NCBI GenBank assembly: GCA_964502525.1
Contig: CAZCXH010000004.1
Location: 45 to 64,044 of the forward strand
Reading direction: 5' to 3'
Length of the DNA stretch: 64,000 nt
Origin: an uncultured Chitinophagaceae bacterium
Lineage (GTDB): Bacteria; Bacteroidota; Bacteroidia; Chitinophagales; CAIOSU01
Shown here: positions 4,521-10,810 of the stretch, piece by piece
Layout of the letters: each line of letters opens with the position of its first letter
Position numbering within the stretch: the first letter of the stretch is position 1
Notes under the pieces: generated by a model
What the model saw: the letters and a program-made list of their open reading frames with translations, nothing else
Told to the model about the DNA's origin: nothing
Database searches by the model: none
Translations under genes and position numbers: made by a program

Positions 4521-6848
4521 TTAATTCTTTATACATCTGATGGAGTAACCATTGTCTTTAAATTCTTCCTGCCTGTTTACATCTCCATGGTGGTAATTTA
4601 GAGTACGAATCCAAGCATGTTTCGAACCATTCGCAGTTGTGCTCCACCACTTAACATAATAACCCATACCTGTAAAACCTTGCCCTGAAATAAGTACACC
4701 TGCAGGTAACCCGGAAAAGCCACTGCTACTACTTGAGAAGGCTCCTGCATTAGGGCTATGCCAATATGGAGTTTCCGCAGCTTTCATTTTACCACCTGCA
4801 TTAGAACCAAGATAATTAACTAAAGTTTGCCATTCACTATCAGAGGGTACATGCCATCCTGTTGGGCATACATTTCTGCTATCTTTTGCCGCATACCAAT
4901 TATAGAGTTTCCCATAGACATTATCATAATTGATATTAGTTTGATACCAACACCAAGCACCAGTCGTTAAATCTTCCAACTGGCTATAATTGGGATTTGC
5001 AATTCTATCCCCGTTTGAATAACGTGACGTTCGTAAATTTTCAGCCATCCAAACTTGATTGCCTATTTTAACAGTCTTATAAGTATTACCATCAATGTCC
5101 GTAACAGTACCAAATCGTGCTTGCTCTATTTTTTCTGCTTCCTTTTGTTTGGCAATTCGCTCTTGTTCAATTTTCTTTTTTTGTTCCTGTTCCGCTTTTT
5201 GTTTAGCTATCCTATCCGCTTCTTCCTTCTTTTTCCGCTCGGCTTCCTGTTCGGCAATTCTATCTGCTTCTTCCTGTTTTTTTCGTTCTGCCTCCATCTC
5301 TTGTTGTCTTATTACTTCATCCACCTTGGCAATCTTATCATTTGGTATTTGTCCATTTGGATGGAATTTCGCGGCTTCCTGATAACGTTCTCGCGCCTCT
5401 TCAAATTGGCCATACTTAAACAAAAAATCTCCTTGGCTTATCAGGGTATCGTATCTTTCTTGGCTTATCAGGGTGTCGTATCTTTCTTGTAAAGCCTGGT
5501 CTATCATGGTTTTTCCGTCATCGTTATTATTTGCCTCCCACATATTCCACAATAATGAAATAATCGCTAATACCAATAAAACCAATACCGCAATCAACTC
5601 TGCTCTATTGCTTTTTTTCCAAACAGGCTTTTCAACCATTCCATTTTTCGTGCCTCCTCCGTTGGCTTCTCCAACTGTTTTGGATAAATGCCCGCCTGCT
5701 TGCTTGATTTCCTTGCGGACCAAATGCCGTATGCCCCAGATAATTGCGAGTACGATGGAACCCATGAGAAAGATAAAGAAAAGCTCAGCCATCATCATCT
5801 GAGAGGAATACATAAACACCCAGAAAACTAAAACCATCCAAAATAATCCTGTAAAAAATATGTTCAAAGTTTTCCAAGCAACAAGTATATATGTATTAAA
5901 TTTTTTAATCGGTTTTACCGTCTTTTCTGTCAGCCCCTTTTCACCTTGCTGTTTGGTTTCAATCGTTACGGCTGCCGTCTTTTTATTTGAGGTCGCAATC
6001 GTTTTTTCAATCCGGCTGCTTTCTGCCCACTGCCCCTTTTGCAAATACAGTTCTGCTGCCTGTTTGAGTTGCTTCGCAGCGGGGCGTTTGCCCGGCTCGT
6101 ATTGCAGGCACTGACGGATGAGCGTGTTGAGGTCTTTGCTGAAAGCGGCAGGCAGTTCCGACAGTTCGGTGTCCGGTCTGAGGTAGGAGCCGCCCATGCC
6201 GCCCCACGGCTGCTTGCCGGTGAGCAGCTCCGTCATCATCACGCCCAGAGAAAATACATCTGCGGCAGCCGTTTCATCGCCCATGTATTGAAACCGCTCC
6301 GGTGGCGCGTAGGCAATGGTCATGGAGCGGGCGCTGACTGTGGTTCTTTGCAGCGTGGTGCGCAACCGGCTGCTGATGCCAAAGTCGGTGAGCAGGTAAT
6401 CACCGCCCCGGTCAACCAAAATGTTATCGGGCTTCAAATCCTGGTGGATGATGCCTTTGCCATGCAGGTATTCCAGCGCCCCGGCAATCTGCGCCACGAA
6501 CACGGCTAACGCCTTTTCATCCATCGCGCCATGCTCCATCAGTTTCCCGTAGAGGCTGCCGCCCTCGCAATAGAGCATCACGAGATACGGCCTGCCGTCA
6601 TGGATGTCGAAATGCTTTGCGGTGAGGATGTGCGGATGGCTGAGATGGAGGACGCTGGCATATTCGCGCTTGAACTGCTTCAGCCCCAAATCATCCATCC
6701 CGCGTTCGGGCGCATAGATTTTAATGGCTACGATGGCGTCTTCCGCCAATGTGTCCGCAGCCTGCCACACCTCCGAAAACCCGCCCATGCCCACCTTTTT
6801 GAGAAGGCGGTATCGGTTGGCAAAGATTTCATTGGGGGTGAACGGCAT
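4521..6848 (-). CDS. Hanks-type Ser/Thr protein kinase with TM segments, KE-rich coiled coil and a C-terminal FISUMP domain
   Basis: Kinase motifs GMGGFSEVW, VAIK, HQDLKPDNIL, DFG and APPE. About 3 hydrophobic helices. EAERKKxEEADRIAxQ repeats. The C-terminus (TVKIGNQVWMAENL..GKLYNWYAA..CPTGWHVPSDSEWQTL..WWSTT) matches the Fibrobacter succinogenes major paralogous domain (TIGR02145) pattern. Confidence 0.88.
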   Translation of the reverse strand: MPFTPNEIFANRYRLLKKVGMGGFSEVWQAADTLAEDAIVAIKIYAPERGMDDLGLKQFKREYASVLHLSHPHILTAKHFDIHDGRPYLVMLYCEGGSLYGKLMEHGAMDEKALAVFVAQIAGALEYLHGKGIIHQDLKPDNILVDRGGDYLLTDFGISSRLRTTLQRTTVSARSMTIAYAPPERFQYMGDETAAADVFSLGVMMTELLTGKQPWGGMGGSYLRPDTELSELPAAFSKDLNTLIRQCLQYEPGKRPAAKQLKQAAELYLQKGQWAESSRIEKTIATSNKKTAAVTIETKQQGEKGLTEKTVKPIKKFNTYILVAWKTLNIFFTGLFWMVLVFWVFMYSSQMMMAELFFIFLMGSIVLAIIWGIRHLVRKEIKQAGGHLSKTVGEANGGGTKNGMVEKPVWKKSNRAELIAVLVLLVLAIISLLWNMWEANNNDDGKTMIDQALQERYDTLISQERYDTLISQGDFLFKYGQFEEARERYQEAAKFHPNGQIPNDKIAKVDEVIRQQEMEAERKKQEEADRIAEQEAERKKKEEADRIAKQKAEQEQKKKIEQERIAKQKEAEKIEQARFGTVTDIDGNTYKTVKIGNQVWMAENLRTSRYSNGDRIANPNYSQLEDLTTGAWCWYQTNINYDNVYGKLYNWYAAKDSRNVCPTGWHVPSDSEWQTLVNYLGSNAGGKMKAAETPYWHSPNAGAFSSSSSGFSGLPAGVLISGQGFTGMGYYVKWWSTTANGSKHAWIRTLNYHHGDVNRQEEFKDNGYSIRCIKN
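5433..5486. repeat. 27-bp tandem duplication inside the kinase gene
   Basis: TTGGCTTATCAGGGT(A/G)TCGTATCTTTC occurs twice with one mismatch. It encodes QERYDTLIS twice. Confidence 0.85.

Positions 6849-10810: not shown

What the first reader, a model, noticed from the sequence alone, without database searches (positions are those of the whole stretch)
4521..10810. Ser/Thr kinase with an extracytoplasmic FISUMP domain next to a double-FHA ABC transporter and an M48 peptidase
The minus-strand order is double-FHA::ABC ATPase::ABC-2 permease, then 7 nt, then the M48 peptidase, then an opposite-strand VapBC pair, then the kinase.

Two N-terminal FHA (phosphothreonine-binding) domains on an ABC exporter beside a Hanks kinase is the architecture of M. 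tuberculosis Rv1747/PknF. There, phosphorylation gates transporter function. Here the kinase carries a FISUMP (TIGR02145) domain after ~3 TM helices, predicted to lie outside the cell. I do not know that combination as a described sensor kinase.

The tightly coupled M48 protease has no counterpart in the Rv1747 paradigm. It suggests an exported or processed substrate.
Basis: partly seen in the sequence, partly recalled or inferred. Interest (0 to 1): 0.6.

Follow-up and report, generated by a model that had tools for sequence, protein, structure and literature searches.

The report
Kinase-controlled exporter and protease cassette
A membrane receptor kinase sits beside a phosphothreonine-reading ABC exporter and its partner periplasmic protease, and this trio recurs across Bacteroidota as a signalling cassette that I could not find described anywhere.

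Summary
All five genes, their order, the 7-nt gap and the three membrane segments are as described.

The Rv1747/PknF comparison is only partly right. The transporter has the same architecture, FHA-FHA-ATPase-ABC-2 permease. However, its inter-FHA linker is 33 residues long and has no threonine, so the mycobacterial linker-phosphorylation mechanism cannot apply. The likely docking sites lie on the kinase itself, in a juxtamembrane stretch with 8 threonines.

The new result is conservation:
- 24 of 31 non-redundant relatives of the transporter have an M48 gene within 1 kb.
- 21 of 24 have a Hanks kinase within 10 kb, and 18 of 24 have a PP2C phosphatase.
- 70 control ABC loci gave 0, 2 and 0.

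Among the 93 closest M48 relatives, 49 are FHA-M48 fusions and 5 are PP2C-M48 fusions.

Kinase-FISUMP fusions exist elsewhere, and some of them sit in this cassette. The sensor domain is swappable: FISUMP, Lcl_C, FGE-sulfatase or Sel1.

A related genome (83% nucleotide identity) keeps the same kinase after M48 but lacks the VapBC pair there.

No paper describing the cassette was found. The exported substrate and the protease target are unknown.

The parts
8534..10798 (-). FHA-FHA-ABC ATPase-ABC-2 permease half-transporter, 754 aa. FHA1 is at nt 10505-10726, FHA2 at 10196-10387, the ATPase domain at 9644-10093 and the permease at 8708-9307.
   Evidence: Pfam gives FHA x2 (E 4.3e-38), ABC_tran (3.1e-33) and ABC2_membrane (2.8e-16). 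The closest NCBIfam model is the ABCG-type TIGR00955 (6e-61). The pThr-binding residues (GR, SxxH, NG) and the Walker A, signature and Walker B motifs are invariant or nearly so across 21 relatives. There are about six hydrophobic segments.
10388..10504 (-). Inter-FHA region; its core is a 33-residue linker that contains no threonine.
   Evidence: The linker sequence NEQPPNLSNQPKQKSEINIAFNASLNDFLKQKS has 0 Thr.
7573..8526 (-). M48 zinc metallopeptidase, 317 aa. It has an N-terminal membrane anchor (nt 8437-8517) and the HEIQH active-site motif (nt 7909-7923). It starts 7 nt after the ABC stop codon.
   Evidence: Pfam Peptidase_M48 at 70.9 bits against a cutoff of 20.3. HExxH is kept in all 40 cassette M48 proteins. 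FHA-TM-M48 fusions in relatives fix the catalytic domain on the periplasmic side. The nearest solved structures are 3c37 (4e-15) and BepA (2e-5).
6966..7564 (+). VapB (6966-7184) and VapC PIN toxin (7181-7564). This toxin-antitoxin pair lies on the opposite strand between M48 and the kinase and is probably an insertion.
   Evidence: NF050009 VapB at 75.3 bits against a cutoff of 60, and PIN at E 2.8e-16. The pair is absent from this position in the related contig L164.
4521..6848 (-). Receptor-type Hanks Ser/Thr kinase, 775 aa.
   Evidence: Pfam and NCBIfam domain calls, hydropathy, and motif and charge counts.
6057..6812 (-). Kinase catalytic domain, residues 13-264. It is a non-RD kinase (HQDLKPDN). 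The glycine loop, VAIK, DFG and APPE motifs are intact.
   Evidence: Pkinase E 1.6e-49. HQD is found in 111 of the 120 nearest homologues. This stretch is a GC island, with GC 0.57 and GC3 0.71.
5883..6044 (-). Thr-rich juxtamembrane segment, residues 269-322, with 8 Thr. It is the proposed docking site for the FHA domains.
   Evidence: Residue count from the sequence. The docking role is inferred.
5529..5873 (-). Membrane region: TM1-TM2 hairpin (nt 5718-5873), cytoplasmic loop (nt 5616-5717; 7 K/R against 3 D/E) and TM3 (nt 5529-5615).
   Evidence: Kyte-Doolittle scan and charge counts.
5094..5501 (-). K/E-rich repetitive spacer, probably a coiled coil, between TM3 and the sensor domain. It includes a 48-nt tandem repeat at 5179-5274.
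   Evidence: Repeat family D15; composition of the segment.
4527..5072 (-). Extracytoplasmic FISUMP (Fib_succ_major, TIGR02145) sensor domain.
   Evidence: Pfam at 150 bits and TIGR02145 at 130 bits. The AlphaFold2 model has pLDDT 86.7. The nearest relatives are small standalone FISUMP proteins at 47-57% identity.

Best explanation
This is a reduced copy of a conserved Bacteroidota inner-membrane Ser/Thr phospho-signalling cassette.

Proposed mechanism:
1. The kinase is a receptor. Its FISUMP domain lies in the periplasm and binds an unknown ligand, probably a glycan or other surface polymer.
2. Its cytoplasmic catalytic domain phosphorylates threonines, most likely in its own Thr-rich juxtamembrane segment or activation loop.
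3. The two FHA domains of the ABCG-like half-transporter read those phosphothreonines in trans. This switches or clusters the exporter.
4. The M48 zinc peptidase is made from the same transcript. It is anchored in the inner membrane with its active site in the periplasm. It works with the exporter, either trimming what is exported or cutting an envelope protein.

In fuller versions of the cassette the protease carries its own cytoplasmic FHA or PP2C domain. Those versions also encode a membrane PP2C phosphatase and two further FHA proteins.

Shown: the domain content, the topology logic, the conserved linkage and the fusions.

Inferred: who phosphorylates whom, where the FHA domains dock, the ligand, the exported substrate and the protease target.
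For: Domains and catalytic motifs are intact in all three proteins.

Linkage around relatives of the transporter:
- Of 31 non-redundant relatives (at least 38% identical, at least 1.5 kb of flank on both sides), 24 have an M48 gene within 1 kb.
- Of 24 relatives with at least 5 kb of flank, 21 have a Hanks kinase within 10 kb and 18 have a PP2C.
- 70 control ABC loci (1.2 Mb) gave 0, 2 and 0.

Fusions:
- Of the 93 closest M48 cluster representatives (E <= 1e-30 out of 1.84 billion), 49 are FHA-M48 fusions and 5 are PP2C-M48 fusions.
- All nine FHA-M48 fusions examined have the layout FHA, one TM segment, then M48, which puts the protease domain outside the cytoplasm.

Kinase partners:
- Kinase-FISUMP genes sit in the same cassette in L082, L089 and L095.
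- Other cassettes use Lcl_C, FGE-sulfatase or Sel1 ectodomains on the kinase.
- A related genome (L164, 83% nucleotide identity, from a different sequencing run) has ABC, M48, two small genes, then the same kinase (90% aa identity over the first 95 aa).

The kinase-to-FHA-ABC principle has been shown experimentally for Rv1747/PknF (PMC3138270).
Against: - This window has no PP2C and no further FHA protein, so the circuit is incomplete locally.
- The kinase is separated from M48 by an opposite-strand VapBC pair and must have its own promoter.
- Its catalytic domain belongs to a non-RD (HQD) clade. Other members I looked at are not next to FHA-ABC genes.
- The kinase domains in the closest cassette (L082) are only 25% identical to this one.
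- The M48 protein here has no FHA domain, so any phospho-control of it would be indirect.
- No substrate, ligand or phosphosite is known.
- Linkage counts rest on my own HMMs and on a sample limited by what the scans returned.
Confidence: 0.62

Rival explanations
1. Only the FHA-ABC/M48 pair is a functional unit. The kinase-FISUMP gene is a neighbour by local rearrangement and signals to other targets, while the transporter's FHA domains read phosphothreonines made by kinases encoded elsewhere.
For: - The region between M48 and the flanking genes is fluid. It holds VapBC, a frameshifted ISL3 transposase (2247-3463) and low-GC DNA. Gene order differs from the related contig L164.
- HQD-clade kinases are usually not next to FHA-ABC genes.
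- Three of the 24 relatives with at least 5 kb of flank have no kinase within 10 kb.
Against: - The same kinase stays within about 1.3 kb of M48 in a second genome despite the rearrangement.
- 21 of 24 relatives have a kinase within 10 kb, against 2 of 70 controls.
- Kinases with the same FISUMP ectodomain type (51-52% identical) directly flank the closest relative of the transporter.
Confidence: 0.22
2. The cassette is an anti-phage or conflict system. A surface-sensing kinase with a variable lectin-like receptor triggers a membrane effector, the ABC protein and protease, on attack.
For: - PADLOC kinase models (mad6, PD-T4-6) and mad3 match the kinase and the ATPase domain.
- The sensor domains are swapped often. 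FISUMP and C-type-lectin domains fused to kinases are known targets of diversity-generating retroelements (PMC11661182, PMC7517822).
- Toxin-antitoxin genes sit in or next to the cassette here and in L089.
Against: - The PADLOC hits cover only generic kinase and ABC ATPase domains. M48, VapB and VapC have no hit.
- No methyltransferase or other MADS parts are nearby.
- No template or variable repeat is found in the 64-kb window.
- In Flavobacteriia the cassette lies in a long operon with an ECF sigma factor and envelope-type proteins, which looks like housekeeping envelope signalling.
Confidence: 0.08
3. The ABC protein is not a transporter of a diffusible substrate. It is an ATP-driven mechanotransducer that activates the periplasmic M48 protease, as FtsEX does for cell-wall hydrolases. 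The kinase gates this through the FHA domains.
For: - The ABC and M48 genes are tightly coupled, overlapping or 1-34 nt apart in most relatives.
- Both partners are bitopic or polytopic inner-membrane proteins, and both can carry cytoplasmic FHA domains.
Against: - The permease is of the ABC-2/ABCG type. From general knowledge, members of that type are exporters or floppases, not FtsX/MacB-type transducers.
- No interaction data exist.
Confidence: 0.15

Closest known systems
Mycobacterium tuberculosis Rv1747 ABC exporter with its kinase PknF
   Same: The polypeptide layout is the same: two N-terminal FHA domains, an ATPase domain and an ABC-2 permease. A Hanks kinase gene lies close by. The FHA2 domain matches the Rv1747 FHA-2 structure 6cah at E 2.9e-9, which is no better than its match to other FHA domains.
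   Different: - Rv1747 is phosphorylated on T152 and T210 in a long disordered inter-FHA linker (PMC3138270, PMC8339232). Here the linker is 33 aa with no Thr.
- Rv1747 has no partner protease.
- This kinase is non-RD and has three membrane segments plus a FISUMP ectodomain.
- Orthology with Rv1747 was not established.
Actinobacterial fhaA-fhaB-pstP-rodA-pbpA-pknA-pknB cluster (from general knowledge)
   Same: The fuller Bacteroidota cassettes have the same logic and nearly the same gene order: a small FHA protein, a FHA protein of about 520 aa, a membrane PP2C, a polytopic membrane protein, a bitopic periplasmic enzyme, then receptor kinases.
   Different: The RodA and PbpA positions are taken by the FHA-ABC transporter and the M48 peptidase. 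The window copy has lost, or never had, the FHA proteins and the PP2C.
Kinase plus C-type-lectin variable proteins of cyanobacterial diversity-generating retroelements
   Same: An N-terminal Ser/Thr kinase is grafted to a C-terminal lectin-like ligand-binding domain (PMC7517822). FISUMP itself is reported as a retroelement target domain (PMC11661182).
   Different: No template or variable repeat is present in this window. Most of the cyanobacterial proteins are predicted to be cytosolic (PMC7517822), whereas this one is a membrane receptor.
Periplasmic M48 proteases BepA, LoiP and YcaL of E. coli
   Same: The M48 fold and HExxH motif, and a periplasmic catalytic domain. BepA structures match at E 2e-5.
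   Different: Scores are far below the NCBIfam equivalog cutoffs: 45.7 against 570 for BepA and 37.8 against 365 for LoiP. The protein has no TPR domain and no lipoprotein signal. It belongs to a small subfamily that is mostly fused to FHA or PP2C.
Type VI secretion threonine-phosphorylation pathway PpkA-PppA-Fha1 (from general knowledge)
   Same: A membrane Hanks kinase with a periplasmic domain, a PP2C phosphatase and an FHA reader together switch a membrane machine.
   Different: The output here is an ABC exporter and a protease, not a secretion apparatus. No type VI genes are nearby.

Membership tests
Rv1747-type FHA-regulated ABC exporter | Two N-terminal FHA domains with intact pThr-binding residues | tested here: met
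   Pfam finds two FHA stretches (E 4.3e-38). The GR, SxxH and NG residues are conserved across 21 relatives.
Rv1747-type FHA-regulated ABC exporter | ATPase domain followed by an ABC-2 permease in one polypeptide | tested here: met
   ABC_tran at residues 240-389 and ABC2_membrane at residues 502-701; about six hydrophobic segments.
Rv1747-type FHA-regulated ABC exporter | Neighbouring cognate Hanks kinase gene | tested here: met
   The kinase start lies 1686 nt beyond the end of the ABC gene, on the same strand. 21 of 24 relatives have a kinase within 10 kb. The same kinase is linked in L164.
Rv1747-type FHA-regulated ABC exporter | Long disordered inter-FHA linker carrying the phospho-acceptor threonines (T152, T210) | tested here: not met
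   The linker is 33 aa with 0 Thr. Linkers in relatives are 19-41 aa with 0-3 Thr. The Rv1747 sites are taken from PMC8339232.
Rv1747-type FHA-regulated ABC exporter | Transport function positively regulated by kinase phosphorylation | not testable with these tools
   This needs biochemistry or genetics.
Active Hanks-type Ser/Thr kinase | Glycine loop, VAIK lysine, catalytic HxD...N, DFG and APE motifs | tested here: met
   GMGGFSEV, VAIK, HQDLKPDN, DFG and APPE are all present. The Arg of HRD is replaced by Gln, which makes it a non-RD kinase, as in 111 of 120 homologues.
FISUMP / TIGR02145 domain protein | Score above the curated cutoff | tested here: met
   TIGR02145 at 130.2 bits against 41.65; PF09603 at 150.3 bits against 33.9.
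FISUMP / TIGR02145 domain protein | Extracytoplasmic location | tested here: met
   There is an odd number (3) of hydrophobic segments after a cytoplasmic kinase domain. The TM2-TM3 loop has 7 K/R against 3 D/E, and the stretch after TM3 has 3 K/R against 7 D/E. The test used hydropathy and charge only; no dedicated topology predictor was available.
C-type-lectin-like fold | Significant structural match of the FISUMP model to lectin-like domains | tested here: inconclusive
M48 zinc metallopeptidase | Pfam score above cutoff and an HExxH motif | tested here: met
   70.9 bits against 20.3; HEIQH at residue 202.
BepA / LoiP equivalogs | NCBIfam equivalog score | tested here: not met
   45.7 against 570 for BepA; 37.8 against 365 for LoiP.
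VapBC type II toxin-antitoxin pair | VapB antitoxin followed by an overlapping PIN toxin gene | tested here: met
   NF050009 at 75.3 bits against 60; PIN at 60.7 bits against 23.6; the two genes overlap by 4 nt, 7181-7184.
Diversity-generating retroelement target | A template repeat matching the 3' variable region of the target gene | tested here: not met
   No repeat of 40 nt or more involving 4521-5100 exists anywhere in the 64-kb window. A reverse transcriptase was not searched for exhaustively.
Known anti-phage systems (MADS, PD-T4-6) | Matches beyond generic domains, plus the other system components | tested here: not met
   Only the kinase domain and the ABC ATPase domain match. M48, VapB, VapC and orf3830 have no hit.

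The most novel reading that the evidence does not exclude
Bacteroidota have a widespread, so far undescribed transmembrane phosphothreonine machine. In it, receptor kinases with interchangeable lectin-like ectodomains control two outputs through FHA docking on the cytoplasmic face: an ABCG-like exporter and a periplasmic M48 protease. A cytoplasmic phosphorylation code would therefore set proteolysis and export in the periplasm, serving envelope remodelling or surface-polymer surveillance.
Probability: 0.4. Interest if true: 0.75.

Novelty: new variant of a known kind. Interest (0 to 1): 0.6.

Why it matters
Hanks-kinase signalling has barely been studied in Bacteroidota, a phylum that dominates gut, soil and marine polysaccharide turnover.

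If the cassette works as proposed, it would be the first case in which FHA or PP2C modules are wired to a periplasmic M48 protease. It would also be a second, mechanistically different example of a phospho-gated ABC exporter alongside Rv1747.

The swappable sensor domains (FISUMP, Lcl_C, FGE-sulfatase, Sel1) give a natural experiment on what these bacteria sense at their surface. The cassette is present in cultivable genera such as Allomuricauda, Winogradskyella and Chitinophaga, so it can be tested directly.

Tried and rejected
1. The genome-contig scan with the full-length transporter alignment picked generic Walker-A patterns. Only about 8 of 80 loci were true relatives. I reused the other 70 loci as controls.
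2. A diversity-generating retroelement was considered because FISUMP is a reported target domain. No template or variable repeat was found, so I rejected it for this window.
4. I first read the sharp GC switch inside the kinase gene as evidence of a recent chimera or misassembly.
   - Other kinases also show higher GC3 in the catalytic domain, by 0.00-0.18.
   - The related contig L164, from a different sequencing run, has the same kinase N-terminus with raised GC3.
   - So I now rank misassembly and very recent acquisition as unlikely. Domain shuffling remains supported by discordant similarities.
5. A defence-system reading was checked with PADLOC. Only generic domain hits were found.
6. Four full-text literature searches for FHA with ABC plus M48, PP2C, Bacteroidetes or related terms, and one for a FISUMP kinase, found nothing relevant.
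Full report
**What is in the window**

Reading the minus strand from right to left, the region holds the following genes.

- A 754-aa protein (8534-10798) with two FHA domains, an ABC ATPase domain and an ABC-2 permease.
- Seven nucleotides later, a 317-aa M48 metallopeptidase (7573-8526).
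- On the plus strand, a VapB/VapC pair (6966-7564).
- A 775-aa Hanks kinase (4521-6848) whose C-terminal 190 residues are a FISUMP domain. Pfam gives 150 bits and TIGR02145 gives 130 bits against a cutoff of 41.65.

The only correction is that 10810 is an upstream TTG. Public gene calls use the ATG at 10798.

The flanks are unrelated. On one side is an SDR reductase on the other strand. On the other side is a low-GC stretch with an uncharacterised membrane protein and a frameshifted ISL3 transposase.

The window contains no PP2C phosphatase, no other FHA protein and no other kinase. Elsewhere it carries SprB, PKD and type IX secretion cargo genes, so the source is a gliding-type member of the Bacteroidota.

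**Are the proteins functional, and which way do they face?**

The kinase has every catalytic motif: GMGGFSEV, VAIK, HQDLKPDN, DFG and APPE. It is a non-RD kinase, because the Arg of HRD is replaced by Gln. The same holds for 111 of its 120 nearest homologues.

After the catalytic domain, the kinase has the following segments:
- a 54-residue segment with 8 threonines;
- two hydrophobic segments forming a tight hairpin;
- a 34-residue loop with 7 K/R against 3 D/E;
- a third hydrophobic segment;
- an acidic stretch (3 K/R against 7 D/E);
- a K/E-rich repetitive spacer;
- the FISUMP domain.

The kinase domain must be cytoplasmic. Three crossings and the charge bias therefore put FISUMP outside the cytoplasm. 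This rests on hydropathy only, because no dedicated topology predictor was available.

The nearest relatives of this FISUMP domain are small standalone FISUMP proteins at 47-57% identity.

For the transporter, the FHA pThr-binding residues and the ATPase motifs are conserved across relatives.

The M48 protein has one N-terminal hydrophobic anchor and an HEIQH motif. In nine relatives the same protease carries an N-terminal FHA domain followed by a single membrane segment. An FHA domain must be cytoplasmic, so this layout fixes the catalytic domain on the periplasmic side.

**Is the neighbourhood conserved?**

I collected loci around relatives of the transporter from three sources:
- a genome scan;
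- a metagenome scan using a permease-specific alignment;
- contig look-ups.

I annotated them with HMMs built here. After collapsing the transporters at 90% identity, the counts were as follows.

| Feature near the transporter gene | Relatives | 70 control ABC loci (1.2 Mb) | Fisher p |
|---|---|---|---|
| M48 gene within 1 kb | 24 of 31 | 0 | 2.5e-17 |
| Hanks kinase within 10 kb | 21 of 24 | 2 | 1e-15 |
| PP2C within 10 kb | 18 of 24 | 0 | 1.5e-14 |

- The 31 relatives are at least 38% identical to the window protein and have at least 1.5 kb of flank on both sides. Six of the 24 nearby M48 genes encode FHA-M48 fusions.
- The 24 relatives are the subset with at least 5 kb of flank on both sides.
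- The controls are loci around ordinary ABC ATPases, mostly from Bacteroidota, and contain no FHA protein either.
- More distant transporters (34% identity or less) lack the set.
- A gammaproteobacterial-type variant has a large FHA protein, a PP2C and a kinase, but no M48.

Gene order varies.
- In Flavobacteriia, M48 sits immediately upstream of the transporter. The operon runs on through a LEA_2 protein, an ECF sigma factor, WG-repeat and Sel1 proteins, a Sel1-bearing kinase and a PP2C.
- In another widespread type the order is: small FHA protein, 520-aa membrane protein with a cytoplasmic C-terminal FHA, membrane-anchored PP2C, FHA-ABC, FHA-M48, then receptor kinases.

**The protease is part of the circuit**

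I searched the M48 protein against 1.84 billion cluster representatives. It found only 93 representatives at E <= 1e-30 and 936 at E <= 1e-10.

Of the 93:
- 49 carry an FHA domain;
- 5 carry an N-terminal PP2C phosphatase domain, confirmed by Pfam for three of them;
- 38 are short forms like the one in the window.

These fusions tie the protease subfamily to Ser/Thr signalling independently of gene order. The window copy lacks the FHA domain but keeps the anchor, the spacer and the active site.

Its scores are far below the BepA and LoiP equivalog cutoffs. The best solved relative is an uncharacterised structural-genomics entry, 3c37.

**The kinase and its sensor**

Kinase-FISUMP fusions are not unique.
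- In the same non-RD clade they occur in P0043, P0051, P0060 (Thermaurantimonas aggregans), P0063 and P0071.
- Inside the cassette they occur in L082 (two copies directly upstream of a transporter 54% identical to the window's, with M48 downstream), L089 (two copies) and L095.
- Two Thermaurantimonas fusions are not near any FHA-ABC gene. The nearest kinase homologue, P0002, is not either.
- A Rhodohalobacter clade member sits with an FHA-trypsin protease, a PP2C and an FHA-kinase. This echoes the theme of a protease linked to FHA signalling.

Cassette kinases carry FISUMP, Lcl_C, FGE-sulfatase, Sel1 or no recognisable ectodomain. The non-RD clade also carries MORN, WG-repeat, ankyrin/TPR and other domains. 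The sensor module is therefore exchanged freely.

The window kinase itself looks like a product of such shuffling.
- Its FISUMP domain is 51-52% identical to those of the L082 cassette kinases, but the kinase domains are only 25% identical.
- Against its own clade the pattern is reversed: the kinase domain is 51-53% identical and the FISUMP domain about 30% or less.
- GC3 drops from 0.71 in the catalytic domain to about 0.3 in the rest of the gene. The switch lies near nt 6000, at residues 270-285.
- Part of that contrast is general, since six comparator kinases show differences of 0.00-0.18.

**A second genome**

A contig from a different sequencing run (L164) is about 83% identical at the nucleotide level. 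It reads: end of the transporter gene, M48, a 109-aa gene, an ArsR-type regulator, then the start of the same kinase (90% aa identity over 95 residues, plus 30 nt of shared upstream sequence).

In the window, the 109-aa gene and the regulator lie at 647-1665, beyond the kinase. VapBC occupies the space between M48 and the kinase, and an ISL3 remnant lies in between.

Three conclusions follow:
- the kinase stays linked to the pair through a local rearrangement;
- VapBC is an insertion or a product of that rearrangement;
- a misassembled kinase gene is unlikely.

**How it compares with Rv1747/PknF**

The architecture and the kinase neighbour match. The mechanism cannot be the same in detail.

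Rv1747 is phosphorylated by PknF on T152 and T210 in a long unstructured linker between its FHA domains (PMC3138270, PMC8339232). Here the linker is 33 residues with no threonine. Linkers in relatives are 19-41 residues with 0-3 threonines.

FHA domains need phosphothreonine, so the ligands must be on other proteins. The most economical candidates are the Thr-rich juxtamembrane segment and the activation loop of the receptor kinases. This is inference.

The FHA2 domain matches the Rv1747 FHA-2 structure no better than it matches GarA and other FHA domains. Orthology is therefore not established.

**Other readings**

- Defence system: PADLOC matches are limited to the generic kinase and ATPase domains.
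- Diversity-generating retroelement: FISUMP and kinase-lectin fusions are known targets (PMC11661182, PMC7517822), but no template repeat is present in the window.
- Fold of FISUMP: the AlphaFold2 model is confident (pLDDT 86.7). Foldseek found only non-significant matches, mostly C-type lectin-like domains. The lectin-like nature of the sensor remains suggestive only.

**Novelty**

Four full-text searches combining FHA and ABC with M48, PP2C, Bacteroidetes or related terms, and one for a FISUMP kinase, returned nothing relevant. One further search, for the phrase 'FHA domain-containing ABC transporter', found only a mycobacterial genomics paper. The library does not cover subscription journals.

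I rate this a new variant of a known kind. The principle of a Hanks kinase controlling an FHA-bearing ABC exporter is known. The following appear undescribed:
- the conserved pairing with a periplasmic M48 protease that is itself often fused to FHA or PP2C;
- the accompanying membrane FHA proteins and PP2C;
- the swappable ectodomains on the kinases.

The exported substrate, the protease target and the ligand are all unknown.

Noticed in passing
window 4521-6848, switch near 5950-6050: There is a sharp compositional break inside the kinase gene. The catalytic domain has GC 0.57 and GC3 0.71. The rest of the gene has GC about 0.39 and GC3 about 0.3. Similarities are also discordant: the kinase domain and the FISUMP domain have different nearest relatives. 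This suggests domain shuffling. The related contig L164 shares the high-GC kinase start.
   Followed up: partly
window 647-1665 and 1679-7564; locus L164: The window is rearranged relative to a genome that is 83% identical. In L164 a 109-aa gene and an ArsR-type regulator lie between M48 and the kinase. In the window they lie beyond the kinase, and VapBC sits between M48 and the kinase.
   Followed up: partly
window 2247-3463 (-): An ISL3-family transposase is split into two overlapping reading frames (242 aa and 170 aa). It is probably a decayed insertion sequence and lies within the rearranged low-GC stretch.
   Followed up: no
window 3830-4444 (+): A 204-aa protein with one N-terminal membrane segment has only weak Ig-like and CarboxypepD_reg-like Pfam hits. 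It has the same low GC3 (0.30) as the 3' half of the kinase gene. No relative was found in any fetched locus.
   Followed up: partly
proteins P0396, P0404, P0417, P0420, P0451: These are PP2C phosphatase-M48 peptidase fusion proteins (536-598 aa) among the closest relatives of the window's M48. I did not find this architecture described.
   Followed up: partly
L163 5021-9986 (Rhodohalobacter sp.): A cluster next to a close kinase homologue encodes an FHA-trypsin protease, a PP2C, a DZR protein and a kinase-FHA fusion. It is a second case of a protease wired to FHA signalling.
   Followed up: no
L082 5350-9971: Two tandem cassette kinase-FISUMP genes have HRDIAPDN in the catalytic loop, so the usual catalytic-loop lysine is replaced by alanine.
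   Followed up: no
L006 7569-21040 (Allomuricauda MAG): The Flavobacteriia version is a long co-directional operon: PcfJ-like, M48, FHA-ABC, LEA_2, ECF sigma factor, a 412-aa protein, a WG-repeat protein, a 168-aa protein, a Sel1 protein, a Sel1 kinase and a PP2C.
   Followed up: partly
window 16503-23927 (-), 40989-52432 (+), 53726-56731 (-): Very large repetitive surface proteins: a 2474-aa SprB-repeat protein with a CHU_C type IX signal, two paralogous PKD-repeat proteins of about 1900 aa with Por_Secre_tail, and a 1001-aa PKD/CHU_C protein. They share repeat units (families D1-D8 and D10-D17).
   Followed up: no
window 12418-12462 and 24282-24326: A 45-nt sequence is repeated at 82% identity just upstream of two unrelated genes, an aldehyde dehydrogenase and a nitronate monooxygenase-like gene. 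It may be a shared regulatory site.
   Followed up: no
window 26380-26603 and 27394-27617: A 224-nt direct repeat at 88% identity. One copy overlaps the 3' end of an amidohydrolase gene, and the other lies just beyond a DnaJ-domain gene. It may be a duplicated gene fragment.
   Followed up: no
window 10814-10821 (-): An exact match to the Bacteroidota -7 promoter consensus TAnnTTTG (TAAATTTG) lies about 9 nt upstream of the transporter ATG. The alternative TTG start at 10810 falls inside this motif. A near match (TATATTTA) lies about 20 nt upstream of the kinase ATG and is conserved in L164.
   Followed up: no
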